A DNA stretch of 64,000 nucleotides from Cyanidioschyzon merolae (Eukaryota): NCBI GenBank assembly GCA_000091205.1, contig AP006493.2. One strand, written 5' to 3'. Shown here one piece after another: positions 6,617 to 64,000 of this stretch. The stretch's first letter is position 1. Every line of letters begins with the position of its first letter. Under the pieces are notes generated by a model. That model saw only the letters and a list, made by a program, of their open reading frames with translations, ran no database searches and had not been told where the DNA came from. The position numbers and the translations under genes were made by a program.

Positions 6617-7349
6617 GTCGCCTGTAAGACGGGTGTCCCTTGCGATGACCCCGGCTTCATAGCACATCATTCTGGGCAGGGCGGGTTCGCACTTGTACGA
6701 AGAGCAGTCGTGCACAGTGTGCGCGCAGCGTAGCGATATAGTCGCAAATGAAACGCTAGCGCGCGGGGCTCGCGGTGCCCAGGGTTTCAGCAGTAGCGAG
6801 CACTCTGCTTGTTGACGAAATCGCGCGCTGGAGGAGAACAAGCGCCCCCGACGCATGCTCTGATTTTTGGTTCAGGGCAGTCAACGATATACGAGGCAGG
6901 AGAGTTCCAAGTACGGTGGCTCGAGTCAACGCTCATGTTGCGAGGTTCATCGCATCTATTCGCGTTGAGCCTCGCGAGAGATAAAAAGCTGCATCTAGGC
7001 CAGGGTAATAGTGACCGGCTGCTCTACAAATGCGCTCTCGTTGAGGCTTCAGCTTTTAACGTTGTAAACAGTATTTGGATTAGCCTGCAGACACGGAATC
7101 TTTACACCTGTCAAGAAGCTCGTGTTGCTTTTGGGCCCTTACAGTGATTGACACTTGGCATGAACGTCCTTGAAAGCGCCAAGCCGCTGGGCGCTGCACG
7201 AGGCCTCGTTTGTGCACGCGCGTACGCAAGCGGGAAAAGCTGGGCAATGTGCCGCTCTTATCTGTTTCTCGACTGGTGTCCGGGTAACATCGTCCAGGTC
7301 TGCAGGTTGCCTTTGGGATGTACTTCGCGGTACCCAAAGAATAGAAGAT

Positions 7350-9400
7350 GATTATCGAGTACCAATGGCCCAGGAGAATCGTTCTTGATGTTCATATGTA
7401 GAGCGCTCCAGTTGTGCTGGATTGCTCAATAGCTCCATCCCGGTGCCGTGCTTCGAATGAGAATCCAAAGCGCTGTCACTTCATGACGGATTCTATTCCA
7501 TCGGAGCGTTTCGGCATTTCACCACATTGCCTAGACCGATTCCTCCACAGTTCAATCGAAAGATCGCTCGGCACCAAGGCGCTGGGCGCCCCGAAAGCAC
7601 GCGACATTCTCGGATATCCATCAGGGTGTTCAAGTCGAGATCCAGAGAGAGATAGAGAGAGACAGAGACAGAGAGAGCTCGCGTGCATGCTTGCCGGTGG
7701 AATCGTACCATAGCAGGCCGCTCATTTTCGATCGCCTCCCCTGATGACATTTGCTCAGCTTCGTGTTCGCCATCTCGTGCACCAGACTCGCTCTGCTTCA
7801 CGCTCGTTTTCTCGGCAGGTTCCGGCTCGTACTCGCGCCCGTGATGCACCCTTTTGTGGTCTCGAATCCATCGATGGGAATCGTGCAGGAATCGATTCTG
7901 GAGTTGTTGAGTTGTTGCAAGCTTTCGTCGAAGGCACAGGGCGGTACCCGTCGCACGCTACAGCGTGTCCAGCGCCCTACGCTACCACCGAGCGACGCGA
8001 CTTGTCAGGCCCAGCCTTTTCCATTTCATTCCGGAAGTTGGTGAATGCGCGATTCTTGCCTCTGCGCAACCGCATCGCGGTCTCTTGGACGCTTGCCGGA
8101 GACCTTTCGCATCAGCAGAGTGAACGCTCAAGAGCACACTGAATGAGGCACGGGAAGCGTCCGTCTCTCCCGGACGCGGTGCACGGGGTGTCGAGACGGC
8201 TCACGCTGCCGTCAGTCAGCTTGCTGGCGGTTTGTCTCTCGGCACCCATCGGATCTGAACCGCAATCACATAGAGTCCTGGGGAAGTTGCGCAGGTGTAT
8301 CCACTTTCAGTTCATATCTTCGGACAAGTCCTCTCGATTGAGCGGTATGGCGGCGGTCATGATATATTCTGCAAACCGGGAACAACGCTCACCACAGAGT
8401 CTGGCTCCTCACTTGCCATGAACAGATGAAAACGAGGGTCGCTGTGCGACTGAGGCATAGGTTTCACAAAGTGCACGCTCGCTGGTATTCCATCGGTCTC
8501 CATGGTCGCTGGAAACCGCTTCTCAAGTGCTGCTTGCAAAGGAGAAACCTGGAACGAGCTCCGCCGATGCCCTACGCGAAGCTGTTCGCAAGAAGCACAG
8601 TTGCTCGCAGAGATCAGCTGCAGCTTACTCAGGAGGATATCAAGTAGGCGGCGCAAGGATCTATGCCGACATCATGGGTCTGTACCCGACGTACAGAGAT
8701 GACATGGAGTAGACGCTTCGGGAGACAAGGTCGCTCGGGTTCGGGGAGGGCGCCTCTACCGCGCTGCACCACTAGGCTCTGTGCTGCTCTGCAGCGCTCT
8801 GCTCTGGAATACGTCGCAGCGCAAGACGCTAGTAGGGCAGGCGTCACGTCTCAAGTATCCTTCGCGCACGACGGTTACCAGTCCGAGACCGAGAGCAACA
8901 CGATGCGCTTGGGTGGTATAAAACGTGTGTCGCTCTCGTTGCGACAGCTCTTCTGAACCCGCTCCATCTCGACCGCTGGTGGCTCCACCAGCTCGCCATC
9001 TGTCTTCATGAACAGACCCAAGAAAACCTTTCACCAGCGCCCAGTTTCCTGGGCCAGTAAGCGAATGCACAAAGGTCACAGGGTGCGCTTCACCAGGCGC
9101 TCCAGACTGGCTTGCATACTGTTTTCGTGTTCGAACCTAGTTTCGTACGTTTTGGCACCGGTTTCATCGATGTTGTCATAGAGGACGCGGTGCGACGAAG
9201 CGTGACGTTAGTCTGGGAAGTGTTTGTGTGCTAATCCCGTATCCGATTTTCAGACCTTGAGCCGTCTTGAGTCGCGAGCGTCAGCTGTGCTGCATCACGA
9301 GGGTTTCATCGAAACACTGCACAGAACTGAGGACCGCTCGCAACTCAGGTACCGTAACGCTTATGTGCAACTGCTAGGCAAGAAGTGTCAAGAATAAAGA
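7350..9400. repeat. 2.05-kb dispersed repeat, copy 1. It is >99% identical to 17652..19702. It is non-coding-looking and contains a (GA)n-like microsatellite at 7641-7677.
   Basis: Every six-frame ORF between 7414 and 9079 recurs verbatim at offset +10302. Direct comparison shows only about 3 mismatches, all near the 3' end. Confidence 0.9.
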
Positions 9401-48134: not shown

Positions 48135-50099
48135 TCATGACGACTGCTCGAGGGCGGCGGCGATCGCCTCCAAGTTATCCTGATTCATATCCTCGGCCAT
48201 GGCGAGGATGTCAAGTCGATTCATTGCGATTGCAGCGGTTCGCAAATATGACCAAATGTGCAATGCTCTAGGATTGCGCTGCAGCGCCTGAATATAATAT
48301 CGAATGGCCTGCGGGTACGAGCCCTGGTTCGCATACGAGGTACCCACATTGACCCAGGCTCGTACAAAGTTCGGTCGCCGATCAATGGCGCTGCGGTAGG
48401 CTCTGAGCGCCTCCATACTCCGAAAATGGTTGGCTAGCGTCGCCCCCAGACGGTTCCATAGGCGGTAGTCATCGGGGCGGAGCTCCACAGAACGGCGGAA
48501 AGCTAAAACCGCTGCGTCGTAATCGCGCATCAACGAGTGCACCACACCGAGCACCGAGTAGAGGTCGGCATCGCGCTGAGCATCGTTATGACGACTGAGA
48601 AGATCCTGGACTCTCTCCAGCAGCGCCCGTTGTCGTGCATACAACTCGTCGACTTGACTGGTGGGCGTGGGATACGTTTCGTCCGCAGGTGACGCAGAGG
48701 AAACCGGTGCAGCCCGGGCAGAGGCAGGTTGCACCTGCGCACTAGGATGCAGATCCAACCATTGCTGCAGATATCTTAACGCTTGGGATGGATTCAGCTC
48801 ATTGGTATACGAAACCCCGAGACATAAAAGCGTATCTGCGATCATATCGTCGCCCTGTGCTTCATTGTGTTCACATTCCAGGGCTCGTTTCAAGCTGGCG
48901 ATGGCCTGTGGATCCTGGTCAGACTCCGCATGGGCGACGCCCAGAAAATACCATGCGCGTGAAAGTTCTCGGTCGAGTTTGACGGCCGCCTCGAAGGCCA
49001 TAATCGCCTCGGCAAGTCGACCTTCTGCGTACAAGCGCTCGCCTTCCGCAAGCGCTGCCAGTGCTGCAGCCCTGTTGTCAGCGGTCTGCGATTCGCGTCC
49101 CTCGTCTGTGAGGTAGCGATTCTCCTCGGCGGTGTACTGAAAACGATAAGCTGTATCGTTCATCGCTCTCCCGTACGCATGTAAATAGTCGTCGTCGAAT
49201 GTGTCGTCTAGATCGACGCGTGCTTGACGGAGCAGTTCCTCGAAAGACAGACTCGAAGGCGTCTCAGCGTCAACGCTCGCAGCAGGTGCATCTGTCGAGA
49301 CCTGCGTATGCGCTGTGGCTTGTACATCGCGCTGCTCTGCTTGTCCTAAACTTGCAGAAGTCGCACTCTGTTCCAGCTCGTCGCGTTGCTGGTCGGTTTG
49401 GTGCACCTGTTCAGTCTGCGTTTCTGGAGCCCGGCTCACATTACTCCAGTTCGAGGCAAAATTCTGCGGGCCGTAAAATGATGTGTAGCGCGGAGCGTAC
49501 GCTGACCTGTATGGACCGCTCCAGGCCATAGGACGCATGCCTGGCTCCAGGTGCTGCTGCGCTCTACCCGAAGCAGTGCTCGCCCAAGCACGGTCAAGCG
49601 GTGGCGCTGCCGACATCCCACCGTGGTGCTTCGGTGCAGCACCAAACTGGGATGTGTTCCAGGCAGCTTGCATGGAATGAAACGAATTCGGTAGATGCGT
49701 CTGTGCAGCCTGGCCGTGTGCGGGCACTGGTCCAGCGCCGTGTACCTGAAGTCTCCCAAACTCCGCTACAAGTGCAGGCGGTGGCGCTAGTGCGCCTGCA
49801 CCCTGCAAAGGCACGCCCCGCGCGGCAAGCTCCGCAGCGAGCTCAGGCGGAAGCGGCAGTTCTAGAGCCGCTTCGCCAGGTCTCGGACCCACGAACACAG
49901 GACCCTGGTTCGTTGGTGCTGGCCCCCAGGCACGCTCGCGGGTCCCAGCCGCGGCACCGAGTTGCCCGAGCCAGGCACCCGCGCCATCTGGCACAGCACT
50001 GCCTCCGCTCGCTGAGCGACCTTCAACTCTGGCCGCAGAGACGTCATCTGGAGCGCAGACTTGTGACGGGGCCGCAGCCGGGTGCCACGAACTAGCCAT
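48135..50099 (-). CDS. PEX5: Peroxisomal targeting signal 1 receptor PEX5
   Basis: 654-aa ORF. The N-terminal half is disordered with W-x3-F/Y-like motifs (WNTSQF, WSGPY). The C-terminal half holds TPR repeats with the PEX5 signature (AIMAFEAAVKLDRELSRAWYFLGVAHAESDQDPQAIASLKRALECEHNEAQ...LLCLGVSYTNE...NRLGATLAN...). Confidence 0.85.
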   Translation of the reverse strand: MASSWHPAAAPSQVCAPDDVSAARVEGRSASGGSAVPDGAGAWLGQLGAAAGTRERAWGPAPTNQGPVFVGPRPGEAALELPLPPELAAELAARGVPLQGAGALAPPPALVAEFGRLQVHGAGPVPAHGQAAQTHLPNSFHSMQAAWNTSQFGAAPKHHGGMSAAPPLDRAWASTASGRAQQHLEPGMRPMAWSGPYRSAYAPRYTSFYGPQNFASNWSNVSRAPETQTEQVHQTDQQRDELEQSATSASLGQAEQRDVQATAHTQVSTDAPAASVDAETPSSLSFEELLRQARVDLDDTFDDDYLHAYGRAMNDTAYRFQYTAEENRYLTDEGRESQTADNRAAALAALAEGERLYAEGRLAEAIMAFEAAVKLDRELSRAWYFLGVAHAESDQDPQAIASLKRALECEHNEAQGDDMIADTLLCLGVSYTNELNPSQALRYLQQWLDLHPSAQVQPASARAAPVSSASPADETYPTPTSQVDELYARQRALLERVQDLLSRHNDAQRDADLYSVLGVVHSLMRDYDAAVLAFRRSVELRPDDYRLWNRLGATLANHFRSMEALRAYRSAIDRRPNFVRAWVNVGTSYANQGSYPQAIRYYIQALQRNPRALHIWSYLRTAAIAMNRLDILAMAEDMNQDNLEAIAAALEQSS

Positions 50100-51184
50100 G
50101 CTGCGTAGGCTTCAACCCTGTGCACCAACGACAGTACCAACGCTCTGAAACGGTCGAGTCAACCAGGTGAACGTTACGGAACCGCAGTCTTCCAGGAGAA
50201 AACTCCCTGAGGTGAATTGAAAGGGTAAACAAGCTTGAAGTTTAGGCTGTGCAAGTCTCCAGCGCTGATATGCACCAACGCACAAGTCAGTTGTGAAGAA
50301 TGGCAAGAACTAGTACGTCAGGAATGCGCTGAGGATGAACGAGGCGTGGCAACGCCCTGCTAGTCGATAGTTGCCTTTTATGACGTATGATCTAGTATCC
50401 TAGTTTGTACCCTGGAAGAGCGATTCCTATCGACTACGAAAGAAAATCTGAACTTGTCTATCAAAAAACGAACACAATCCACGAATAGAAGGCTAGGACT
50501 GCTTTCGGGGTTCAGTGCTGCTGGGTCGAGAAGGCGACCCGCGGGATACTGGACTTTTCGGTGGGCGCTCGCCTTGCCACCAAACGCACCACGATGAACG
50601 GCGTACGGAGACACAATGGCACTGCCGTACCCGTCCGAAAGTCGGCTCGAGGCACCGTTCACCCGAAGCGGTGACGTCTTTCGTGGCAGTTTCGCTCTCC
50701 GCAAGTTGGTGCAAGCAGGCTAGCTGGCGCGGAACGACGCACTTGGGGAACGCAACGACCTGGATGTAATCTGGGTGCCAGGCGCCCTGCTCCTTGTCGC
50801 GTGAAGCAGGCTTTAAAATCAAACTGTGCGGGCTTTGAAAAGGCAACCACCACTGTGGGAGCGCGTCGAGCACTGGCCCAGCGTGCTTGACTCTTGACTA
50901 TGAAACGGTTCGTTCCGTTCATCGAGCTAAACCTGCTGTTGACCACTTTTGGGCGTCGTCTTTTCCAGCATGCGACAGAAGCGAATCTCTGTGCAGTGTA
51001 GTGCGGGAAAGGCACGAGCGCTCCGTTCAGTTACTGGGCATCTTCAGCAAAACGAAAAGGGCTCTTCTACGAATAAACTTGTAGGCGTCGCATGGTGATC
51101 ATGAGCACCGTCGAATGTACCGTAATCACCGCTAGGCAGACAAATGATGACGTGGACGATAGGGATGGAGACCTGCTCCAATCT

Positions 51185-52457
51185 CTAGACGGCAATGCGC
51201 TCTTCAGCAGGAGAGCCAGAGCTGGACGCTTTCTGAACCACCTTCTGTGAGGTTTGGTAGCTTCGCAGCATTGCAAGATCCTCCTCAAGGCCAACGTCGT
51301 CCTCTGGATAAGCAGGGCCACCATGACGCGAGGTATCATTCCCAAGAATTCCCACCTCCGGCGGGACGCGTAGCAGGCCGAGAAACCTGAGGATCAAGAA
51401 GTAGCCGCCGATATTCATTCCCACAAACGGCCAAACGTAGAGAATCTCCGTCAGCTGAGCAGCGAGCTGCTTTCCATAGCCATAGAATACACCCCCCTGA
51501 ACCATCGTACGAGCCATAAACCATGGCGACGGTATCAGGCTTTGCGAAAAAGCCGGGAATGAGGACGCACCGTGTGCCTCCGAACGCGTGGACGGTAACG
51601 GCGCCGAGCGGGTCATCGATACGCAGCCGCTGGATGAGCTTATCGCCGAAAACCCAAATCCATCCCGCAATAACCCCGCAACACAGCGCCGAGTACGTCG
51701 GAATGGTCGAACAGGGAGATGTAACCGCCACTGTGTCGCTGATAGAGCCATTCACCATGGAGGCGCAGTCAAAGTACTTGTCCACGAATCGCGCGATAAT
51801 CAGCGTCGTGATCCCAGCAGATGCAGATAAAACGAGTGTGTTCACAGCAGCGAGCGCTACCTGACCTGCATTCGAGTACACTGTCGGTACACCGTTCTTA
51901 TTGAAGCCACCGCGCACTGCGCTACCAACCTTACCACCATCCGCGTATGATAACACACCCAGCTGCGAACCCGGATTGAAACCGAACCATCCGAACCACA
52001 GCAGGAGACCACCGAGCACAATCAACGAGATGTTATGACCGGGAATGGGACGGACCTTCCCGTTTTCATCGAAACGCCCAATTCGAGGTCCGATGATCAC
52101 TGCACTGACGAGTGCTCCAGCACCGCCAGTGATATGCACCACGCCGCTGCCAGCAAAGTCAATGGAGCCCGCGGTACCGTAGAAGCCAAAGCTGCCGATG
52201 ATATGACCGGTCGTTGGATTTGTGACTTTGTTGTAGAACAGATTCAGCCATCCGTTGGCGTTCCAGATGGCATGAGAGATCACTGGGTAGACAAAACCCA
52301 TCATGAGTGCAACGAACCCGATGTAGGCGAACACGCGAACCCGCTCACAGATCGCTCCGGCAACAATGGACGCGGCTGTCAGGCAGAAAGTGAACTGGAA
52401 CCACCACAAGAGAACCGGTAAAAGGTCGAACGCAAGGGGAATGGTGGAATACCACAT
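51185..52457 (-). pseudogene. AMT: Ammonium transporter (Amt/MEP/Rh family), disrupted. There is an apparent +1 frameshift in a C6 run at 51492-51497, and the first ~100 residues (TM1-2) are missing. The homology itself is clear.
   Basis: Frame A (51336..52457) carries DFAGSGVVHITGGAGALVSAVIIGPRIGRF and FGFNPGS. Frame B (51185..51751) continues with GGVFYGYGKQLAAQLTEIL...LRVPPEVGILGNDTSRHGGPAYPED. Deleting one C/G from the homopolymer restores ...GSYDGSGGVFYGYGKQL.... The ORF starts at the residue equivalent to ~100 of AmtB. Confidence 0.5.
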
Positions 52458-53220
52458 TGTGGAGTAGACAGACGTCGTCAGACGTCCGTGGAAAAGTCTT
52501 CAATGATTGGACAAAGAGGGTGCTGTTGTATGCGCCTCCTCCACGAGCGACACTGAGGCGGCCGACTGCATCAGCTCCCCCGAGAACAAGTGCTATCCAC
52601 GTTCTTTTCGAGTTCGATCGTACGTGGAACGGGTTCCATGCTCCGCCAACAATCATATATGCTTTGATGATTTCGTCCGAAGCAAGCCTCATCAACTGAA
52701 AAAAGCAAACCAACGTCCCGCTGCTGTGTATCGTTACTGATGTTCCAGGAACGCTGTCGTTACGAGTTTGGTGAAAGATCACCGTGCGTGAACTAGGAGT
52801 CTGTTGCAATTGTATCCCAGTGTGTTCTGGACCATGCGAACAAGCTCTCGGGAATCAGAGATGCCTGTGGTGGCAACTTCTATGATCCTGTTTCCTCCTC
52901 CTGTAAGACGATCAACGGGTCGTGTTCTACGATTAACCGCAACCGCTCTTTGATAATACAGGTTTTTGTCCCAAAGCGCATATACATGTTTGTTTCAGGC
53001 TTCCTCAACCATCAGCGTACTGTGTTATGTGTGACGAGAAAGAGGAATCCCGTCCTGCTTTCACTGTTCAGTAAAGAACATATATCATATAGGCAATTCT
53101 TCGACATCGATAGGATACGTTGCACCGTGATTCCGATCCCCAGCTATACACCGCAGCGCATGTGAAACAAACTTGAGAATCAAGTCCATGAGTCGCTGCT
53201 CGCGCCCCAACGAGACGATT
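52426..53220. repeat. Inverted, diverged duplicate of 22440..23230. It abuts or overlaps the 5' end of the Amt ORF.
   Basis: See 22440..23230. The first 16 codons of the Amt ORF (MWYSTIPLAFDLLPVL) have a counterpart in the other copy (MWRFTIPLAFELLPIL). Confidence 0.75.
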
Positions 53221-53497
53221 GTTCTAGAGTATCCGGAGCTTGCGCTGCTGCATTGACATGCGTACCCATGGACAGGACTGACAGCAGAGACAAACCAGCT
53301 AACATAAGCGCGTTCAATGCTAGTCGGTTGCGTGTCTGCTGCACAACATCGTGCCGACCATGCGTACGGCATTGGTCAGCGTATAACAGGTTTGAGCGCA
53401 CAGCTTGCACCATAGGTCTAGTGACGGGAATCGTCACCGTGGTATCGTGTGGGTCATGCACGGGGTACTGCTGGCGCTGTCCACTCATGCTGTTGGC

Positions 53498-53880
53498 GTG
53501 AAGGTGATCCAGGAAGCACGCCAGAGCGCTGCGTTTCACAGGAACCGTCATATAAAAAGCATGTTCATACGCAGATCATGTGTCGGTATGCGTTTCCGGT
53601 GAAGGTGATCCAGGAAGCACGCCCGAGCGCTGCGTTTCACAGGAACCGTCATATAAAAAGCATGTTCATACGCAGATCATGTGTCGGTCTGCGTTTCCGG
53701 TGAAGGTGATCCAGGAAGCACGCCAGAGCGCTGCGTTTCACAGGAACCGTCATATAAAAAGCATGTTCATACGCAGATCATGTGTCGGTCTGCGTTTCCG
53801 GTGAAGGTGATCCAGGAAGCACGCCAGAGCGCTGCGTTTCACAGGAACCGTCATATAAAAAGCATGTTCATACGCAGATC
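53498..53880. repeat. Tandem repeat of a 101-bp unit, about 3.8 copies, with 1-2 substitutions between units
   Basis: Unit starts at 53498, 53599, 53700 and 53801 (gtgaaggtgatccaggaagcacgcc...catataaaaagcatgttcatacgcagatcatgtgtcggtctgcgtttccg). It generates repeated peptides in ORFs 53405..53983. Confidence 0.9.
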
Positions 53881-54622
53881 ATTATTCGCTGATGCCTCAT
53901 CATGGCCCAGACGTCCACGGACTGACACACGGAACGCAAGGCGTCTCGTTCGTCCAACAGGCGTATCGAGGCTGGCTCCATAATTCCCGAAAAAAATCCG
54001 TCTGCAGCGTGCTGTCCAGTGCTCGACTCATGGGAATCTTGTTGAATTCCGTCCTTTCAGAGAACCGTACTCGTTCCGTATCACATGAATATCGTACATG
54101 AGATACGCAATGTCATTCGAAAGGTCGCAGCGTCCATGCCGGCTGCCGGCACCCTTCGACCTCAAGCGGTGTGCAAACCAGAACACACCATCATCGGTGC
54201 CGCATTCCGGTAACGAGTCTCAGGAAGCATTCTCCACCAGCGGTGTCCGAACAGCGTGAAGCCGCTGCACAGGCGGTTCTCCTGCAGCGTGCCTGTGCTC
54301 TGCTCGGAGCTTGAAGCTGCTAGAAGCGGCACGTTACAGCGCGTTTGGAGATACGTACGGGAACGTAGCGCCTGGTTGTTGTTTCTCTGGAACGCTACCC
54401 ATCATGCTCATTGGACGTCACCGGATGCATAAGCAATGCGGGTTATCGATGCTGCGATTCCAGTAATCCCAAAAGTCATGACAAGCTCGACTCGTAGAGC
54501 AGCGCTTGCCCTGAATGCACCCGAGGTTCGATCCAGCGTGGCGGCACGAGGGCAAGGGCGTGGCTTTGGTGACAACCACGTTGCGCTCGCTTCTCCGCAG
54601 ACGCTGGTGCCGGTAAACGCCT

Positions 54623-57600
54623 GTGGTACGTCTGCGGAGCATGGAGACCGAGTTGTATCGAGAGAGCGCACTTTTCTCCTGGGATGAGGTTGCGACCTGG
54701 ACAACGCGTAGTTTGGCTACAGGGAGGACCGCGGAACCCGAGTCCATCGCTAGCCCTGGTGGGCCGACTGCCTCCCAGGGCGCAACGCAAACAGCGCTCG
54801 AAGCTAGCAGCGGGCGGGTTGTGGACGCGGGCGCGGTGTTTGGCGCTCCCGTACGAGACTCAGAGGCAGGTTTCAATGACGAGTACATCGAGGTGCTCAT
54901 CTGGAGGCTTTTGCGTCACAAGGAGCGGGATCGGGCTGGTGCCTCGCTTTGGCTCGAGATCGCCCGGAAACGTTTCTACGGTTCTATGCAAAAGTTTCCA
55001 GATCCAGGGGCTCTGGGAAACCTGTCGACTTTGCAAGCGACGCTTGCTCAAGTCTTACACGGAGAGCGGTGGCGTCTACTGGACGAATCCATCTCCGCCG
55101 TGGTCTTTGGTGCGGACCCGAGCTGGTGCTACCTCCTCGTTGCGGGTACTCGACTTGTCTGCGTTCGACTGAGCGCGCTCAAGTCAGCCCAGACAGAAGT
55201 TGTTGCTTACGAGTACAGAAACGGGTTGGGTGTAGGCACAGCGCTTTCGTCCGAACGAGTGATGCGAACACCTGGAAGCATGCGTCGGGAATCTGTTCAG
55301 GAAAGCCACCTCGATACCGAGACGGCGGATATGCGTTACTTTTCCATGGAGACCTACGCCCCATTTCCCTCGAACACAGTTCAGACGCTGCACTTGCCGA
55401 CCGAAGTTTACGCAATCCAAGCCTTGGAGGATGCGCCGCACGCTTTTATTGCGTTCGCACGAAGTGGGCATCTATTCCGTATCGAAATCATGCAGCCTAC
55501 GGGAATGGATGTGACAAACGTTTCATACACGCTGACGACGCTCGCATCCCCGAAGAGTTTCCGTAATTTCGGTCCAGCAAAGAGGATACTGCAATCACTG
55601 AAAACGCCGGGGCGCCTGGGGGCCACGGCGGGAGCCTCCACACCAACCCGCGTATCTCCGCTGGGAGTGGAGAGGCGGACGCCTTGGCTTGCCAGCAGCA
55701 GGTCTGCAGGTCGCGCTTTTGGACAAGTTCCGATCGTTGCAACTTGTGCGATGCGTGGCCACGTGTTGATGCTCGACATGGAGGGCATTTTTCGACTGTG
55801 GGACCTGGGCAACCCGCAGGTCTTTGTTGAGTCGGTGCCCTGGCGTGCCTCGCTGGCGTCATCGGGGAGTTTCGGCTTGGTGCCGCATACGCATTCTGTG
55901 GAGATAGCTGCGCCAAACGGAGTAATGGCCTCATTTTTAGCCGTCGTCTCTGTTTTGGACGCAAGCGGCCTGTTGCGTTTGCAACTCATTCATGTCGTCT
56001 TGCGGCGCGCTGCTGAGGAAAACAGCACGCCCACCGGTCTGGAACTCACCACACAGCTCTTGGCTGATGCGGAGGCGCCTGCGGAAGAGCTGACGACGTG
56101 CTGCTTCTGGCAATCGCAGCAGGCACTCTGTCTGGGCTGGGCAAACGGCAGTATCACCTTGATACCGGTATCCGCTGATGCTATCTCATCGGCAAGTACC
56201 CGGGAAGCCTCGGGAGAGCCCTGGTGGTCATTCTCACTGAAGCCGGTCTACAGTATCGCTGCCGAGGATGAGATAGATGCGGACCTCCATCTGCAAGGCG
56301 CCCTGGATCGGACACCGGGACGCGACCCGGTAGAGCGTATTCTAGCGCCGCATCGTTTCCCCTGGGGCACTGTCTACCGGGTACTGCAGCGTTCGCTCCG
56401 CAGCGAGCAAGATGCTGCAAATACCTCTGCCGTGACGTCGGAGTACGCACTGGATCAAAGCATGTCACCGTGGACGTTATCGGCGTCGCCGTGCCTCGTT
56501 CGGTATCTGCGGGAGCGCCTGGTCGAGCTCGCAACACAGGATCCCGCGACGATGGATCGCTTCCTTCGTCGCGTTCGCATGTTTTACCTCGAAAACGACG
56601 CGTCCGTTCTACAGCTGCAACCGATGCCTCTTTTGGATGCATTCAGCCTTGTCGTGCATCCCTGGGGTGCCGCCGTACTCCGCCTCTGTGATGCGTCGGA
56701 GTGCCTGTTTTTCCGGAGTCGCGATCATTCGTTCAGCACCAATCAGGGCGATGCGCTGCCCTGGATGACTTTCTTGAGTAGGCTGCTTGTCGAGCGCTTC
56801 AATGCTTCACGCTGCGATGCCTCGATTGGTGGATCAACGCCAGCGCTGGAGCCACTTGCATCGCCACCGGCCTTGCTGCAACAGGACGACTCGGCAGCGC
56901 TGCTGCATCACCTGTGGGATATCGTGACTGGTCCATGTCTGCTGACCGCGGATGCTCTACAGCGCCTCCAACCGCCACCTGGCCTGCTAGCAGTCGTGCA
57001 GGCTACAAGTCTGCCGCAAATTGCCTACGTGCGGCGGACTTTTGCTGGCATTGGCGCGAATCTTGCCGCGCTAGGGCAGCAGCAGCAGCAGCAGCAGCTA
57101 AATTTCTGGAATCACCAGGAACGGCTGTGGGACTTGGCACTGCGCATCAGCACCAGCGCCGAGCTAAGCGACCAGTACGGACACCATTTCGTGGAACGAA
57201 TGCTCGGGAACGGCGAGTGGCTCGTTTGGCTGAAAATGCAGCACGCGCTCAGCACAGACTCTGTTAACGCCAACGCAAGCGCGTCTGCCGGCTCTGCCAC
57301 CTGGTTGACGCTGGTACCGCTGCTGATACGGCCGAGTCCTTCGATGGTACGTCTTCTGGTAGAGAAGGCGCCGTTGCACTGGGCGCTGCTCCTGATCGAT
57401 TCTTTCTATGAGAATGAGATGCCTGCGGTTCGTGCTCATGTGGCAGGCCTCATCGCACTGCAGCGCTGGCGTGAGGAGCGGCAAACGGATCCAGTGTCGC
57501 CTTTTGTTGAGGCGTGGACGGAGCTCCAGCAGAAGCAGCGGCCACTTGATCTGGAACTCTTACCACAACTCGTTGGAAGTATGAGCGGTGCACTGGATTA

Positions 57601-59233
57601 CGCAGAACGCATGGTGGAGTTTCTCGAGGATCAACAGGCGCATGAGGCAGCCTGTCAAATGGCGCGAGTCGCCCTTGCGACCCTAAGGGCAGAGCGCCAT
57701 GTGCAAGCAGGAGGCGAGCCTCAACCGGGCCTCGTTTCTGTACGTGAACGAACCGAGCGAGAAATCACCCAGACTCAGTTGGGATTCTTTCTATTCATGC
57801 GGGCACTGGATACGAACGCGCTCGACGAGGCGCTCTCGGTGCTCGTGAAGGATCTCCGGGAATCGAGTGCGCCTCAGACCCGTGATGCGCTCTATCTCCT
57901 GCTACAAAAAGCCATCGAAATGAAAGGAATGCCGTGGTTGCTGGCTCAATCCCTACCACCTCTGTGCTTTCTGCGCTCTGCTGAGGCGCTTTGGCGCCTC
58001 GCGACCGCCTGTGATCTGGAGCGTGCGGGTTCACTGTACGAGACGACGTGTGCTGTTTACATGACTCGGAACGAATGGTGGCTGGCAGCGTGCGTCGCCG
58101 TTGACTGGGCCGAGCGTACTCGTCAAGCACTGGACGCGGTACCAGCGGCACAGCAAGCGCAGTTGCTGGTCGACGCTTCAGCCGCTGGCGAGTCTGAACG
58201 CGTCACATGGCTCCTGGAGCAACGTCAGTGCGCGTTACAGCTCGCGCTCTACCTGCTCAAGCAGGCCGGGGACAAAGCCGTTCCCGTCACTCCGTCCTGG
58301 GTGATGGTCCAAGAGGCTGACATTCGTCGGGCCTGGTTGCTCGTTCGCTATCAACGTGCACTGCGACGTCAGCTGAATGCATCGGGGCACAGCAGCGGAA
58401 ACTTGCGTTTCCTATTCGAGACCAGCGATGCGGCAGCTCGATCCGTGGCGTATCAGCTTGTCGCTAGTCCACATCGTTTCGATGGTGAGAGCGGTATCAT
58501 GGCAGCTCTGAGGCTCACGTGTTTATGGTGGAACGAAGCTACTGCTGCTACTGCTGCATCTTCTGATGCGGCGGCTCCAAGCATGGCGCTCGCTGATGTT
58601 CGTCGCGAGACTGCTCGTATTATTCGCCTTGCTGTCGAGCGTGTGCAACCTTTATATGATGAACATGCAGCGGCTGATGCTGCGCTCGTCCAGATCGACA
58701 AGGAACTCGAAGCGGCCCTCAATTACGCTGCTTTGACCGCGCGAACTGGGTACGTTTTCACTCCTGCTCTGGAGGCCTGGATTCAGTGCACTGGCAAGCC
58801 CATGCAGACCGCTAGCTCCGAGCGCAGAACGAATTCCCAGGGAATAGCTACAGAGCGCTTGCCGAACAGGGACCTGGACCCTGCTGCGATACCAACGTCA
58901 ACTGCGGAAGCGAGGATACCCAGTCGCAAACAAAGCGATGACGCGAGCGAGTCCAAACCGGCGCCGTCCACCTTCAAAACGAAAGTGACAGTGGGCATCG
59001 CTTCGGCACCACGTTGGCTAGTTGATGCCGTGGCCCTGCGCGAGAACCACCTCGAGTCTATGCTGAAGCTGCTGATACAAAAGCAGCTCTATGCTGACGC
59101 TGCTCAACTCGTTGTCTTGCGCTTGGAGTGCAGCAGCCCTCGGCGACACCCTATCTATCTCTCACAACATGTTCTGCTTCAGCTGCGAGAACTCCTGAAC
59201 GCTGCCCCGGACACCAGTGCAACCACGTCCTGA
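54623..59233 (+). CDS. Hypothetical 1536-aa protein with an internal poly-Gln tract. The N-terminal half may be beta-rich and the C-terminal half alpha-solenoid.
   Basis: Longest ORF in the window. No recognisable enzymatic motif. The (CAG)7 tract at 57071-57095 encodes Q7. Confidence 0.55.
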   Translation: MVRLRSMETELYRESALFSWDEVATWTTRSLATGRTAEPESIASPGGPTASQGATQTALEASSGRVVDAGAVFGAPVRDSEAGFNDEYIEVLIWRLLRHKERDRAGASLWLEIARKRFYGSMQKFPDPGALGNLSTLQATLAQVLHGERWRLLDESISAVVFGADPSWCYLLVAGTRLVCVRLSALKSAQTEVVAYEYRNGLGVGTALSSERVMRTPGSMRRESVQESHLDTETADMRYFSMETYAPFPSNTVQTLHLPTEVYAIQALEDAPHAFIAFARSGHLFRIEIMQPTGMDVTNVSYTLTTLASPKSFRNFGPAKRILQSLKTPGRLGATAGASTPTRVSPLGVERRTPWLASSRSAGRAFGQVPIVATCAMRGHVLMLDMEGIFRLWDLGNPQVFVESVPWRASLASSGSFGLVPHTHSVEIAAPNGVMASFLAVVSVLDASGLLRLQLIHVVLRRAAEENSTPTGLELTTQLLADAEAPAEELTTCCFWQSQQALCLGWANGSITLIPVSADAISSASTREASGEPWWSFSLKPVYSIAAEDEIDADLHLQGALDRTPGRDPVERILAPHRFPWGTVYRVLQRSLRSEQDAANTSAVTSEYALDQSMSPWTLSASPCLVRYLRERLVELATQDPATMDRFLRRVRMFYLENDASVLQLQPMPLLDAFSLVVHPWGAAVLRLCDASECLFFRSRDHSFSTNQGDALPWMTFLSRLLVERFNASRCDASIGGSTPALEPLASPPALLQQDDSAALLHHLWDIVTGPCLLTADALQRLQPPPGLLAVVQATSLPQIAYVRRTFAGIGANLAALGQQQQQQQLNFWNHQERLWDLALRISTSAELSDQYGHHFVERMLGNGEWLVWLKMQHALSTDSVNANASASAGSATWLTLVPLLIRPSPSMVRLLVEKAPLHWALLLIDSFYENEMPAVRAHVAGLIALQRWREERQTDPVSPFVEAWTELQQKQRPLDLELLPQLVGSMSGALDYAERMVEFLEDQQAHEAACQMARVALATLRAERHVQAGGEPQPGLVSVRERTEREITQTQLGFFLFMRALDTNALDEALSVLVKDLRESSAPQTRDALYLLLQKAIEMKGMPWLLAQSLPPLCFLRSAEALWRLATACDLERAGSLYETTCAVYMTRNEWWLAACVAVDWAERTRQALDAVPAAQQAQLLVDASAAGESERVTWLLEQRQCALQLALYLLKQAGDKAVPVTPSWVMVQEADIRRAWLLVRYQRALRRQLNASGHSSGNLRFLFETSDAAARSVAYQLVASPHRFDGESGIMAALRLTCLWWNEATAATAASSDAAAPSMALADVRRETARIIRLAVERVQPLYDEHAAADAALVQIDKELEAALNYAALTARTGYVFTPALEAWIQCTGKPMQTASSERRTNSQGIATERLPNRDLDPAAIPTSTAEARIPSRKQSDDASESKPAPSTFKTKVTVGIASAPRWLVDAVALRENHLESMLKLLIQKQLYADAAQLVVLRLECSSPRRHPIYLSQHVLLQLRELLNAAPDTSATTS

Positions 59234-59680: not shown

Positions 59681-60610
59681 ATCGGTGGACCTTGTCCTTA
59701 AATTATAAATATGTACAGTTTAATACAGTTACGATCGAAGCGACCATGCAGGGTCGCATGCGCAACGCGGATACGATGGCACCTATCTAGCCACCTTGAT
59801 CCATACGTTTCCGAGCCTTATACGACCCGCTGCCTACTATCGGTTTCTGCTTCTCTTTATTCACTTCGAGTATCGAAGGTTACCTCAGAGAATTCGATCG
59901 CGACAGTTCCGCGGGTCACGTCTTCGGTACCACATATCGTCTGATAGGGATGGCGGTGTTGAAGTCGCGGCTCAAGCACTTCATACACATCTATTGCCGC
60001 AGCTTGAATGCACCATTGCAAGAATTGCCAGACTTTGTGCCCACTGTGCTATCTGGTGCTGTGCCAGCTCTCCGCGCTTTTCTACCGCTCAAGCGTACCG
60101 CTGCGCTCTCTCCATCGCCCAGCGTTTTCGGGACCATTCGAACAAGCTGTTGAGCAGAAGAGGCACCTGTGGCGACTATGATCGTTGCTTTTGCTTTCCA
60201 TACGGTGGTGAACGGGTCGTTTGCTACTATCTATCGTTACCACACTGTTCCAATACGAGCTCTGGGCGCAGAGCGCATCCTCTTCGTGCTTTCAGTGTTC
60301 CTTAACCGTCTGCATACTGTGTTATGACTGACCTGATGGAGGAATGCTGCACTCCATGCGCTGTTCAGCAAAGAATAGATTCTATACACAATTCGACTCC
60401 GATCCATAGCATACATTGTAACGTGATATTGATCTTCTGCAGTACAAGGCTGCGAGTACGAAACAGAAATGAGTTGGTAGACTCTCCGACTGTGCGGCAG
60501 CAATCAACCAATATATACAGTTCCATACCATACTATGTAGACTGGGGCTGCGTCTAACGGGCACCTCGGCGGAACCCGTTGCAGAGCGGCGCGCGCCATC
60601 AGTGCTCTAC

Positions 60611-60637
60611 CGCCGCCGCCGCCGCCGCCGCCGCCGT
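60611..60637. repeat. (GCC)9 trinucleotide repeat ~130 bp upstream of the ABC ATPase ORF
   Basis: Direct reading: cgccgccgccgccgccgccgccgccgc. Confidence 0.9.
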
Positions 60638-60769
60638 CGATGCTGCCTGCCGCCGCTCGTGCCTTCAATCTCAACGAGCGCCGACACGCCTCGTTTGGCA
60701 GCGTGTGGAAACCAACGGTGCGAGGTAGTCTCTGCGTTTATCCATAACGCTGTTCCGAACTCGTGACGC

Positions 60770-62731
60770 ATGTTCACTATACCGACTAATTGGCACGCAC
60801 TAGTCTGGTCGCATACAGCGTCAAGGACCCGGTTTCCGGGCAGTGCGAGCTTCGCGAAGCGACCTGAGCACGGCACTGCGGCCTCGTTACCGGTACAGAA
60901 ACCGAGGCGTAACGCGCTCTTATCGGCACAATGGCGCGAATCAAAACGCTCCTGGTCTTCAACGGCTATTACTCGGGAAACAATGACCCCACTAGAGCTT
61001 CCGTTCTTGCGACTTAGCCGAATGGCGGCTGGCGACGCTCCTAGGTCAGCTGCAGTGACGCCTGACTCAGCGACGCCGGTAGCGGAACTCGTCAACGTGT
61101 CGTACCACGTTCGGGAGCACTTTCCTGTCATTGAAGATATCTCGCTAGCCCTGCACCGCTACGAAATTGTATGTCTTGTGGGGCAGTCGGGTTCCGGAAA
61201 ATCGACCATATTGCGCCTCTTCGCTGGCTTGGTGCAGCCGACGCGCGGTACCGTGTACTTTGCAGGGAAGCCGCTGCGTGGCGTAAACCCCAATGCAGCC
61301 ATTGTCTTTCAAAACTTTGCGTTATTCCCGTGGCTCACGGTGGTGGAAAACGTGATGCTGGGTCTGGGATCCGAAATCCCTCTAGCCGAACGCCGTCGAC
61401 AAGCGACTGCGATCGTCGATATGATTGGACTCGATGGCTACGAGAATGCGTATCCGCGCGAATTATCAGGTGGCCAACGCCAACGCGTAGGATTCGCACG
61501 AGCGCTGGTAACCCATCCGACGCTGTTGCTGCTGGACGAACCGTTTAGTGCACTGGACGTGCTTACTGCAGAGAACCTGCGCTCTGAGCTCCTGAACCTT
61601 TGGACGCATGGCTCGATGCCGACGCAGAGTATCCTCATGGTCACGCATGGCATTGAAGAGGCTGTATCCCTGGCGGATCGCATTGTCGTCTTGGGCAAGG
61701 GTCCAGGCCGTATACGGGCTGAAATCCCGGTACGTCTCCGCCATCCACGGGATCGCAAGTCGGATGCATTTCAGGAGCTCGTCGATCGGGTATATAAAAT
61801 CATCAGCGACGAGGTTACGCTTCCGGTAGATGCTGTGGACCAAGTCACGTCGGTTACAGAGCGTTCAGGAAGAGGCGGTGCAACGGCATCGGATTCTCGC
61901 GTGCTCGTGTCGCCACCGGATCGTGCGCAAAGTCAACGAGGCTCTATTGCCAGCACCGAGCAGGAAACCCAGAATCGAGCTGGTGATAACGCTGCCGCCG
62001 CAAGCCCAAGCACAACGAATGACGGACAGCCAAGTGATCGTCCGTTGTCGGCAGCTGCGAAGCGCCAGCTGCTGCAAAAGGCCGCGAGGAGTAATGACGA
62101 GCGCTTGAACGAGTTCCCGGCATTACCACCGGTTCGGTTGGGATCTGTGGCGGGGCTTCTCCAGCTTCTCGCCTCAGAGAACAGCCCCGTCGTGGACCTC
62201 TATCGCTTAGGCCAGGCGCTGCAGCTCGATGTGCACGGCCTGTATCCGATCGTAGAGGCTGCGGAAATTCTGGGTCTCCTCTCTGTATCTGAAGGAGACG
62301 TGGCGCTCACTGGGGCTGGGCATGCCTTTGTTGCCGGCAGCGTCGATGATCGAAAGCGAATAGTTCGGGGAGCGCTGCTCGTGGCTCCAGATGCACGTCT
62401 CATCCAAACCATTTGTCGATTGTTGCAGCGAGCTAAGCATCGTCGCATTCCAGAGAGCCTGGTGCTCGACAGTTTACTCGATCGATACTTCGAGCCGTCC
62501 GAGTCTCGTCGTCAGCTCGACACCGCGATCGAATGGGGTCGCTATGCCGAGCTCTTTGCGTACGATAGCGTCAGCGGCGAACTCTTCCTCGAGGACGAGA
62601 ACGACGCCAACACGAACGGAATGCTCGCGGATCGCCGCTCCACTGAAACCTATCAGACGGAGACGCCAAACCAACGGCCCCGGGTAACCAACGCGGGGCA
62701 CTCGGTAGACACAGCGCCGGATCTGGAATAA
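60770..62731 (+). CDS. ABC transporter ATP-binding protein of the bacterial NitT/TauT (nitrate/sulfonate/bicarbonate; SsuB/TauB/NrtD/CmpD-like) family. It has a ~330-aa C-terminal extension and a possible N-terminal presequence. The alternative start is 60983.
   Basis: Walker A GQSGSGKST, Q-loop, ABC signature LSGGQRQRV, Walker B LLLLDEPFSALD, H-loop VTHGIEEA. The short nucleotide-binding-domain layout and flanking conservation (IVFQNFALFPWLTVVENV) are typical of NitT/TauT ATPases. No cognate permease or binding protein is nearby. Confidence 0.85.
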   Translation: MFTIPTNWHALVWSHTASRTRFPGSASFAKRPEHGTAASLPVQKPRRNALLSAQWRESKRSWSSTAITRETMTPLELPFLRLSRMAAGDAPRSAAVTPDSATPVAELVNVSYHVREHFPVIEDISLALHRYEIVCLVGQSGSGKSTILRLFAGLVQPTRGTVYFAGKPLRGVNPNAAIVFQNFALFPWLTVVENVMLGLGSEIPLAERRRQATAIVDMIGLDGYENAYPRELSGGQRQRVGFARALVTHPTLLLLDEPFSALDVLTAENLRSELLNLWTHGSMPTQSILMVTHGIEEAVSLADRIVVLGKGPGRIRAEIPVRLRHPRDRKSDAFQELVDRVYKIISDEVTLPVDAVDQVTSVTERSGRGGATASDSRVLVSPPDRAQSQRGSIASTEQETQNRAGDNAAAASPSTTNDGQPSDRPLSAAAKRQLLQKAARSNDERLNEFPALPPVRLGSVAGLLQLLASENSPVVDLYRLGQALQLDVHGLYPIVEAAEILGLLSVSEGDVALTGAGHAFVAGSVDDRKRIVRGALLVAPDARLIQTICRLLQRAKHRRIPESLVLDSLLDRYFEPSESRRQLDTAIEWGRYAELFAYDSVSGELFLEDENDANTNGMLADRRSTETYQTETPNQRPRVTNAGHSVDTAPDLE

Positions 62732-63419: not shown

Positions 63420-64000
63420 TCAACGTTCCCACGGAGTGCGGAACTTGTCACCCACATAGACCGCTGACGAACCGAGCTCCTCTTCGATACGCAAAAGCTG
63501 GTTGTATTTCGCCAAGCGCTCAGAACGACACGGTGCACCGCTCTTGATCTGGCCGGTGCCGAGGCCAACCGTCAAGTCCGCAATGAAACTATCCTCGGTC
63601 TCGCCGCTGCGGTGACTCACCATGACCCCCCAGCGCAGGTCTCGGCAGAAGCGATTCGCATCCATGGCCTCGGTGACGGTTCCAATTTGGTTCACTTTGA
63701 GCAGAAGGGCGTTGCAGGCGCGTTTCTCCGCCGCGACCTTGATCCGGTCGATATTCGTAACCAGGAGATCGTCACCAACGACTTGGATCTTCTCTCCGAT
63801 TTGCTCCGTTAGCGCTGCGTATGCATCAAAGTCCTCTTCATGGAACGGATCCTCGACGGAGACCAGCGGGTACGTTCCGCAGAACGACTTGTAGAGCTGC
63901 ACGAGCTCGTCCTTGCTTACCAGCATGGAACTCGCCCCTTCGGGATGCTTAAAGTCCAGATCGTATTTCTGTTTCTCCTCGTTCCAGAACTGGCTAGCTG
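63420..64000 (-). CDS. ENO: Enolase (phosphopyruvate hydratase), C-terminal part. The gene continues beyond the window end.
   Basis: Conserved motifs: [10 protein letters not shown] (in frame up to position 64000), [59 protein letters not shown]. Confidence 0.9.

What the first reader, a model, noticed from the sequence alone, without database searches (positions are those of the whole stretch)
51488..51500. Apparent +1 frameshift in a C6 homopolymer splits the Amt coding sequence
Amt homology passes from frame A (...AMVYGSYDGSGG) to frame B (VFYGYGKQLAAQL...LRVPPE...HGGPAYPED) at the run cccccc at 51492-51497. Removing one base gives the contiguous conserved sequence GSGGVFYGYGKQL. This is a sequencing indel, a true inactivating mutation (pseudogene), or much less likely a programmed frameshift.
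Basis: seen in the sequence. Interest (0 to 1): 0.5.

Follow-up and report, generated by a model that had tools for sequence, protein, structure and literature searches.

The report
Frameshifted, truncated ammonium-transporter pseudogene copy
The one-base frameshift is real, but it lies in a dead, front-truncated duplicate of the red alga Cyanidioschyzon merolae's working ammonium transporter gene, so it is an ordinary decaying pseudogene that the reference annotation lists as a protein.

Summary
On the minus strand a G6 run (C6 on +, 51492-51497) moves Amt homology from the annotated ORF (52457..51336) into the +1 frame, which runs to a stop at 51185. Deleting one base restores ...GSGGVFYGYGKQL...

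The window matches C. merolae 10D. The ORF is BAM80505.1, annotated "probable ammonium transporter".

It is not a sequencing error. Three independent metagenome contigs also carry G6, other wild contigs carry G7 or G10, and no copy is in frame.

It is not the only lesion. Homology to Amt genes starts abruptly at 52411, so the first ~165 residues are missing. 10D keeps an intact 570-aa paralogue on another chromosome (BAM83445.1, which I take to be CMT526C/AMT1), in the ancestral gene neighbourhood.

Intact copies read GGT GGT at this site, so the G run arose only in the fragment.

The fragment evolves about 5 times faster at the protein level (41 vs 8 changes) and has lost four near-invariant family residues, one of them in the post-frameshift tail.

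Programmed frameshifting is not supported. Verdict: a partial duplicate pseudogene, of low interest, with a useful annotation correction ("CmAMT2").

The parts
51492..51497 (-). G6 homopolymer (C6 on the + strand), the site of the one-base insertion. Intact copies read GGT GGT here.
   Evidence: Run length is 6, 7 or 10 in different strains.
51336..52457 (-). The annotated 373-aa ORF (BAM80505.1, 'probable ammonium transporter'). The first 16 codons (52457-52410) come from unrelated junction sequence. The last 51 codons (51491-51339) are out-of-frame read-through.
51185..51490 (-). Amt-frame tail after the frameshift: 101 codons plus the stop at 51187-51185, covering the last TM helix and the cytoplasmic C-terminus. 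It carries E352V and E353G, and three 10D-specific replacements (P, N, R).
51018..52411 (-). The whole duplicated segment: the 3' 1.23 kb of an Amt CDS plus about 170 nt of 3' flank. Nucleotide identity to the intact paralogue locus is 83-86%, and homology stops at both ends.
52411..52412 (-). The 5' truncation junction. Upstream sequence has no Amt similarity. Wild strains share the junction.
51567..51572 (-). Codons CGG TGC (R, C) replace the family's W-G in the GGTWG motif after the second pore histidine.
   Evidence: Some wild fragment copies still have WG.
51735..51737 (-). Codon GAC (D) replaces a Gly that is conserved in 98% of 116 distant homologues.
51350..51355 (-). Codons GTG GGA (V, G) replace E-E of the C-terminal acidic motif. 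The second Glu is conserved in 100% of 116 homologues.

Best explanation
The locus is an unprocessed, partial-duplicate pseudogene of the C. merolae ammonium transporter.

A 1.4-kb piece of the ancestral AMT gene, covering its 3' three-quarters plus some 3' flank, was copied next to the PEX5-like gene on this chromosome. This happened after C. merolae split from Cyanidiococcus. Alternatively, a full copy later lost its 5' end.

In the copy, a synonymous GGT to GGG change fused two glycine codons into a G5 run. In other strains slippage added more, giving G7 and G10.

The copy lacks the first ~165 residues (about TM1-3) and is out of frame before the last helix. It has accumulated replacements at family-invariant residues and makes no functional transporter. 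The intact paralogue on another chromosome supplies that function; I take it to be CMT526C/AMT1.

Shown here: the frameshift, the truncation, the paralogue, the run-length polymorphism and the accelerated protein evolution. Inferred: the order of mutations and the lack of function.
For: 1. The window is C. merolae 10D. The ORF is 100% identical to BAM80505.1 on an 852,849-bp record.

2. G6 is reproduced in independent assemblies: L001/L006, L004 and L005. L007 and L008 have G7, and L009 has G10. All 15 truncated copies and P0003 (the L001 hybrid), 16 in all, are out of frame. All 16 full-length intact copies are in frame.

3. Homology to every Amt locus begins at 52411. Wild contigs L007-L009 are collinear with the window at 99.1-99.2% identity across the junction, up to 53514-53585. 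Pfam covers only profile 83-399. Solved Amt structures align from about residue 91 of the chain. tblastn finds no Amt N-terminal remnant upstream (best E 0.6).

4. 10D has an intact 570-aa paralogue, BAM83445.1, on the 1,621,617-bp record. Its wild counterpart L010 sits in the gene order EBP - Rad17 - ... - Amt - 495 aa. Cyanidiococcus (L002) and Cyanidium (L003) share that order, so it is the ancestral locus.

5. Intact copies and outgroups read GGT/GGA GGT at the site, so the G run exists only in the fragment.

6. Relaxed constraint. With Cyanidiococcus as outgroup there are 41 fragment-derived versus 8 paralogue-derived amino-acid changes (chi-square 22.2, p = 2e-6). Four of the 41 destroy residues conserved in 85-100% of 116 distant homologues: G225D, W280R, G281C and E353G. 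The derived residues are never seen in that set. E353G lies after the frameshift.

7. Polymorphism among strains is 8 non-synonymous to 4 synonymous in the fragment, and 4 to 1 in the tail. Variant density is 1.0%, against 0.44% in neighbouring PEX5 and about 1.5% in intergenic DNA.

8. Literature. CMT526C is the nitrogen-starvation-induced high-affinity AMT (PMC4549557). Its protein is detected and induced, while 'CmAMT2 (CMK126C)' is not detected at either time point (PMC13306765 Table S2). That CMK126C is this ORF is my inference, from the chromosome letter K and from 10D having only two annotated AMTs.
Against: Averaged over the whole branch since divergence from the intact copy, the fragment is not fully neutral. 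A three-point estimate on the 3' part gives dN of about 0.087 for the fragment and about 0.025 for the intact copy. With dS 0.58 split equally between branches, omega is about 0.30 versus about 0.09. This is a rough Nei-Gojobori estimate with a saturated outgroup dS. It implies one of two things: the copy was constrained for part of its history, for example as a complete second AMT before the 5' loss, or gene conversion from the functional gene keeps re-importing selected sequence. The mosaic identity (94% in codons 1-150, 82% in codons 171-407) points to conversion.

Both the 373-codon ORF and the 101-codon tail are still free of stop codons. Both pore histidines and the conserved Asp are retained.

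I have no transcript data. Absence from one proteome is weak evidence, because the nitrate transporter was also not detected there.
Confidence: 0.9

Rival explanations
1. Sequencing or assembly indel: the true 10D sequence is C5 and the reference has a homopolymer error.
For: Homopolymers are classic error sites. Removing one base restores a perfect junction.
Against: G6 is present in three metagenome contigs assembled independently from other samples, which differ from 10D at about 1% of positions. It is also implied by at least 8 further 373-aa predictions from JGI, ENA and Logan. Other contigs carry G7 or G10, never G5. Even with C5 the gene would lack its first ~165 codons.
Confidence: 0.02
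2. Programmed +1 ribosomal frameshift, or transcriptional slippage, on the G run produces a protein with the correct Amt C-terminus.
For: tRNA-Gly could in principle re-pair +1 on G GGG GGU. The downstream Amt frame is still open for 101 codons and is about 80% identical to orthologues.
Against: The site is not conserved. Functional paralogues and orthologues read GGT GGT and need no shift. Strains carry G6, G7 or G10, which would need different shift directions. The 0-frame codon after the run is UGU, and the next stop is 51 codons away, so there is no stop or pause signal. The downstream 131 nt fold no better than shuffles (z = 0.15). The tail has lost the 100%-conserved Glu (E353G) and shows 4 non-synonymous to 1 synonymous polymorphisms. 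The product would still lack about three N-terminal TM helices.
Confidence: 0.02
3. The truncated ORF is a real gene. It would encode a 373-aa N-terminally truncated Amt-like protein with a novel C-terminus and some function, for example regulatory or dominant-negative. G-run length would act as a contingency switch on its C-terminus.
For: The 373-codon ORF is retained at the same length in at least 9 assemblies. The branch-average omega is about 0.3 rather than 1. The reference annotation and at least one paper treat it as AMT2.
Against: The ORF start comes from 16 codons of unrelated junction sequence. The out-of-frame C-terminus differs between the G6, G7 and G10 strains. Family-invariant Gly, Trp and Gly are replaced. 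The protein was not detected in a proteome in which AMT1 was. The strains are only about 1% diverged, so a shared ORF length carries little weight.
Confidence: 0.05

Closest known systems
C. merolae 10D AMT1 (BAM83445.1, 570 aa, which I take to be CMT526C), the intact paralogue
   Same: It has the same Amt/MEP family domain (PF00909). The wild counterpart locus is 83-86% identical at the nucleotide level over 52411-51018. The 10D paralogue and the fragment share an identical derived loop, GVLSYADGGKVGSAVRGGFN.
   Different: The paralogue is full length and in frame (GGT GGT at the site). It keeps GGTWG and the C-terminal EEE motif, and sits in the ancestral Rad17-Amt neighbourhood. It is nitrogen-regulated and detected as protein.
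Unprocessed (duplicative) pseudogenes with homopolymer-slippage frameshifts
   Same: It is a partial copy of a parent gene at a new locus with non-coding flank retained. It has a truncation plus a frameshift, accelerated amino-acid change, and a length-polymorphic mononucleotide run.
   Different: It lies in a genome known for very low redundancy. It is still annotated as a protein. It appears to exchange sequence with its parent by gene conversion.
Programmed +1 frameshift sites (bacterial prfB/RF2, antizyme, yeast Ty1/Ty3; recalled from general knowledge)
   Same: It has a single-base +1 displacement between two halves of one conserved protein.
   Different: There is no conserved shift site, no 0-frame stop or hungry codon, no stimulatory structure, and no selection on the downstream frame.

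Membership tests
Functional Amt/MEP/Rh ammonium transporter (PF00909) | Complete domain with all 11 TM helices | tested here: not met
   Pfam covers only profile positions 83-399 of 399. Solved Amt chains align from about residue 91. DNA homology begins at 52411. There is no N-terminal remnant upstream.
Functional Amt/MEP/Rh ammonium transporter (PF00909) | Uninterrupted reading frame through the last helix and C-terminal tail | tested here: not met
   There is one extra G at 51492-51497, and the Amt frame continues at +1.
Functional Amt/MEP/Rh ammonium transporter (PF00909) | Family-invariant residues retained | tested here: not met
   The conserved Asp and both pore His are kept. G225D, W280R, G281C and E353G replace residues conserved in 85-100% of 116 homologues.
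Functional Amt/MEP/Rh ammonium transporter (PF00909) | Expressed as protein | not testable with these tools
   The only evidence is from the literature: 'AMT2 CMK126C' was not detected while AMT1 was (PMC13306765 Table S2). The identity of CMK126C with this ORF is inferred.
Duplicative (unprocessed) pseudogene | Intact parent or paralogue elsewhere in the same genome | tested here: met
   BAM83445.1 is 570 aa on the 1,621,617-bp record. The wild counterpart L010 is in the ancestral synteny.
Duplicative (unprocessed) pseudogene | Disabling lesions (truncation, frameshift) | tested here: met
Duplicative (unprocessed) pseudogene | Relaxed selective constraint relative to the parent | tested here: met
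   There are 41 vs 8 lineage-specific replacements, p = 2e-6. Polymorphism is 8N:4S overall and 4N:1S in the tail. The branch-average omega of about 0.3 shows the relaxation is partial or recent.
Programmed ribosomal +1 frameshift | Shift site conserved among homologues that need it | tested here: not met
   Intact homologues have GGT GGT and need no shift. Fragment copies vary between G6, G7 and G10.
Programmed ribosomal +1 frameshift | 0-frame stop or slow codon at the shift site, or a stimulatory RNA structure | tested here: not met
   The next 0-frame codon is UGU and the stop is 51 codons later. The fold z-score is 0.15. Codon rarity of GGG was not measured.
Programmed ribosomal +1 frameshift | Purifying selection on the downstream frame | tested here: not met
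   E352V and E353G are present in all copies. Tail polymorphism is 4N:1S.
Homopolymer sequencing artefact | Not reproducible in independent assemblies | tested here: not met
   G6 is present in L001/L006, L004 and L005, and in at least 8 further gene calls.
Phase-variable contingency locus (simple-sequence switch) | In-frame ON alleles present in the population | tested here: not met
   None of the 16 copies carrying the fragment-type 3' part (15 truncated plus the L001 hybrid P0003) is in frame. No in-frame cluster was found with the repaired query.

The most novel reading that the evidence does not exclude
The dead fragment persists because it exchanges sequence with the working AMT1 gene. 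The derived loop GVLSYADGGKVGSAVRGGFN, fixed in all fragment copies, also appears in the functional gene of 10D and of one wild strain (P0146), but not in other wild AMT1 alleles or in the outgroups. This suggests pseudogene-to-gene conversion that diversifies a loop of the transporter. In the same way, the G-run or the RC lesion could be copied in and switch AMT1 off. A more remote possibility is that the truncated ORF is expressed and G-run length toggles its C-terminus.
Probability: 0.08. Interest if true: 0.45.

Novelty: new member of a known kind. Interest (0 to 1): 0.15.

Why it matters
The main value is housekeeping. The reference proteome, UniProt (M1V5E0) and at least one recent paper count this ORF as a second ammonium transporter ("CmAMT2"). 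If the pseudogene reading is right, C. merolae 10D has a single functional gene of this closely related AMT type. I did not check for more distant Amt or Rh homologues in 10D. This matters for nitrogen-uptake genetics in this model alga, and for anyone planning knockouts or interpreting 'not detected' in omics tables.

It is also a clean, dated example of gene decay in a genome known for having almost no redundancy. The decay combines truncation, a slippage-prone run created by a synonymous change, and loss of invariant residues.

Tried and rejected
1. I thought the frame-2 peptide upstream of the ORF (...VRSNSKRTWIALVLGGADAVG...) might be a degenerate Amt N-terminus. Pfam found nothing at E up to 0.1. 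tblastn of four Amt N-termini against 52380-54700 gave only scattered hits, best E 0.6, and E 14 for that peptide. I rejected it as chance.

2. I first read L001 (P0003: full N-terminus plus the same frameshift) as the ancestral state of this locus, with 10D having lost the 5' end. The cluster members and L007-L010 changed that reading. The 5' half and upstream genes of L001 are those of the intact paralogue locus. Its 3' half and downstream genes are those of this locus. The switch lies in a tract the two paralogues share. L001 is therefore an assembly chimera or a true recombinant. I did not use it for the 5' comparisons.

3. The exact-product look-ups for BAM80505.1 and BAM83445.1 found no contig. 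I could therefore not read the DNA of the 10D paralogue and used the wild allele L010 instead.

4. The metagenome pattern scan returned only three contigs, all G6. The G7 and G10 alleles came from cluster-member look-ups.

5. Polymorphism N:S in the fragment (8:4) does not differ significantly from neighbouring PEX5 (5:3). The numbers are too small to be useful on their own.

6. Literature searches for the accession numbers and for C. merolae pseudogene/frameshift reports found nothing about this locus.

Full report
**Observation**

The + strand reads TACACCCCCCTGA at 51488-51500, with a C6 run at 51492-51497. The coding strand is the minus strand, so the run is G6.

- Upstream frame...PDTVAMVYGSYDGS-GG, which then continues out of frame as CILWLWKAARC...NSWE to a stop. 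This is the 3' end (51336) of a 373-codon ORF that starts at 52457.
- Frame displaced by +1: VFYGYGKQLAAQLTEILY...LRVPPEVGILGNDTSRHGGPAYPEDD... to a stop at 51187-51185.
- Pfam PF00909 matches the first part at profile 83-331 (E 1.2e-64) and the tail at profile 338-399 (E 0.0018). The one-base-repaired protein matches contiguously at 83-399 (E 6.8e-75).
- Orthologues read GSGGVFYGYGKQL or GSGGIFYGYGKQL without a gap.

**Where the window comes from**

The 373-aa ORF is 100% identical to BAM80505.1 / XP_005536541.1, 'probable ammonium transporter', of Cyanidioschyzon merolae 10D, on an 852,849-bp record. The closest other species are Cyanidiococcus yangmingshanensis (80% identity, 560 aa) and Cyanidium caldarium (60%, 536 aa).

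**Not a sequencing error**

- A JGI metagenome contig (L001/L006, about 99% identical to the window over 7 kb) has the same G6.
- A pattern scan of metagenome contigs found two more contigs, L004 and L005, both with G6.
- The 90%-identity cluster of BAM80505.1 has 13 other members from JGI, ENA and Logan assemblies. Most end in the same out-of-frame ...NSWE.
- Two kinds of member differ. P0125 (contigs L007 and L008) has G7, and P0132 (L009) has G10. I read both directly in the DNA.
- Across all members, every copy that carries the fragment-type 3' part is out of frame: 15 truncated copies plus P0003 (the L001 hybrid), 16 in all. All 16 full-length intact copies are in frame.
- Searching with the repaired protein turned up no in-frame version of the fragment.

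**The frameshift is not the only lesion**

- DNA homology between the window and every other Amt locus starts abruptly at 52411.
- The first 16 codons of the annotated ORF (MWYSTIPLAFDLLPVL) come from unrelated sequence.
- Pfam profile positions 1-82 are absent. Solved Amt structures align only from about residue 91. About 165 residues, roughly the first three TM helices, are missing.
- Wild contigs L007-L009 are collinear with the window at 99.1-99.2% identity across this junction and up to 53514-53585. The truncation is therefore shared in nature.
- tblastn with four Amt N-termini finds no remnant in 52380-54700 (best E 0.6).

**The intact gene is elsewhere**

- C. merolae 10D has a 570-aa paralogue, BAM83445.1, on the 1,621,617-bp record.
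That fits the published gene names: CMT526C (AMT1), the high-affinity transporter induced on nitrogen depletion (PMC4549557), and 'CmAMT2, CMK126C' (PMC13306765). Mapping those names to the two proteins is my inference.
- A wild allele of the intact gene (L010) lies in the order EBP - Rad17 - 670 aa - 271 aa - Amt - 495 aa. Cyanidiococcus (L002) and Cyanidium (L003) have the same order, so that is the ancestral locus.
- The window copy sits next to a PEX5-like TPR gene instead.
- Homology between the two paralogous loci spans only 52411-51018. That is the 3' 1.23 kb of the CDS plus about 170 nt of 3' flank, at 83-86% identity.
- The fragment is closer to the C. merolae paralogue (85.7%) than to Cyanidiococcus (73.7%). 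Synonymous divergence to the paralogue is 0.16-0.66, but saturated to Cyanidiococcus. The copy was therefore made within the C. merolae lineage.

**How the run arose**

Intact copies read GGT TCA GGT GGT GTA TTC. Cyanidiococcus has GGT GGT and Cyanidium has GGA GGT. The fragment reads GGT TCA GGGGGG T GTA TTC.

The simplest path is a synonymous GGT to GGG change that created G5, followed by slippage to G6, and in other strains to G7 and G10. This order is inferred.

**Relaxed constraint**

- Lineage-specific replacements, with Cyanidiococcus as outgroup: 41 amino-acid changes are specific to the fragment and 8 to the intact paralogue (chi-square 22.2, p = 2e-6).
- Lost invariant residues: four fragment changes replace residues conserved in 85-100% of 116 distant homologues with residues never seen there.
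  - G225D (51737-51735).
  - W280R and G281C (51572-51567, in the GGTWG motif after the second pore histidine).
  - E353G (51352-51350, in the C-terminal acidic motif, downstream of the frameshift).
- Order of decay: two wild fragment copies still have WG, so that lesion is younger than the frameshift or was reverted by conversion.
- Polymorphism among strains: the fragment shows 8 non-synonymous to 4 synonymous differences, and the tail 4 to 1. Three replacements are unique to 10D. Variant density is 1.0%, between PEX5 (0.44%) and intergenic DNA (about 1.5%).

**A caveat**

A three-point estimate gives dN of about 0.087 on the fragment branch and about 0.025 on the intact branch. With dS split equally, omega is about 0.30 versus 0.09. 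This is a rough estimate.

The fragment has therefore not been neutral for the whole time since it diverged. Either it began as a functional second copy and lost its 5' end later, or gene conversion from the functional gene keeps resetting it.

The mosaic identity favours conversion: 94% in codons 1-150 and 82% in codons 171-407. So does a derived loop sequence that all fragment copies share with the functional gene of 10D and of one wild strain, but not with other wild alleles or the outgroups.

**Programmed frameshifting**

I tested the defining features and none is met.

- The shift site is absent from the functional homologues and varies in length among strains. The variants would need different shift directions.
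- The next 0-frame codon is UGU, and the next stop is 51 codons away.
- The 131 nt from the site onward fold no better than shuffles (z = 0.15).
- The downstream frame has lost an invariant residue.
- Any product would still lack the N-terminal helices.

**Expression**

I cannot test transcripts. In a 2026 proteome study AMT1 (CMT526C) was quantified and induced, while AMT2 (CMK126C) was 'ND' at both time points (PMC13306765 Table S2). This is weak but consistent evidence.

**Verdict**

The finding is real and correctly described. It is a genuine one-base insertion in a 5'-truncated duplicate pseudogene of the C. merolae ammonium transporter. It is neither an assembly error nor a recoding signal. 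Biologically it is ordinary. The practical point is that the annotated 'probable ammonium transporter' / 'CmAMT2' should be treated as a pseudogene.

Noticed in passing
window 51910-52000 (loop codons ~151-170 of the fragment); proteins P0137, P0146: All fragment copies carry the derived loop GVLSYADGGKVGSAVRGGFN. It also occurs in the functional 570-aa gene of 10D (P0137) and of one ENA contig (P0146). Other wild functional alleles and the outgroups have GTL.YSDGG... This suggests gene conversion from the pseudogene into the working gene.
   Followed up: partly
L001 (JGI 3300005861, Ga0080006_1155360) 6001-8016: This contig joins the upstream genes and 5' half of the intact AMT locus to the 3' half, frameshift and downstream PEX5/PEX13 genes of the fragment locus. 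The switch lies inside the tract the paralogues share. It is either a metagenome assembly chimera or a real recombinant chromosome.
   Followed up: partly
window 53498-53882: A 101-bp tandem repeat, 3.8 copies at 98% identity, lies about 1 kb upstream of the truncation junction. Three wild contigs (L007-L009) end inside it. Its function is unknown.
   Followed up: no
window 48135-50099 (-): A 654-aa TPR protein resembles the peroxisomal import receptor PEX5. In L001 a Peroxin-13_N gene follows it. Among strains it shows 5 non-synonymous and 3 synonymous differences.
   Followed up: partly
window 50516-50519 and 50197: Small indel polymorphisms separate 10D from the wild contigs in the intergenic DNA between the fragment and the PEX5-like gene.
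   Followed up: no
window 54623-59233 (+): A 1536-aa ORF with no obvious family lies upstream of the fragment. It replaces the Rad17-side neighbours of the ancestral AMT locus.
   Followed up: no
window 60610-60656: A CCG trinucleotide repeat of about 15 copies lies just upstream of, or overlapping, the start of a 653-aa ABC-ATPase-like ORF (60770-62731).
   Followed up: no
window 63420-64000 (-): The C-terminal part of an enolase gene runs off the window end. It contains one of the window's four G/C runs of 6 or more (63626-63631) and stays in frame.
   Followed up: partly
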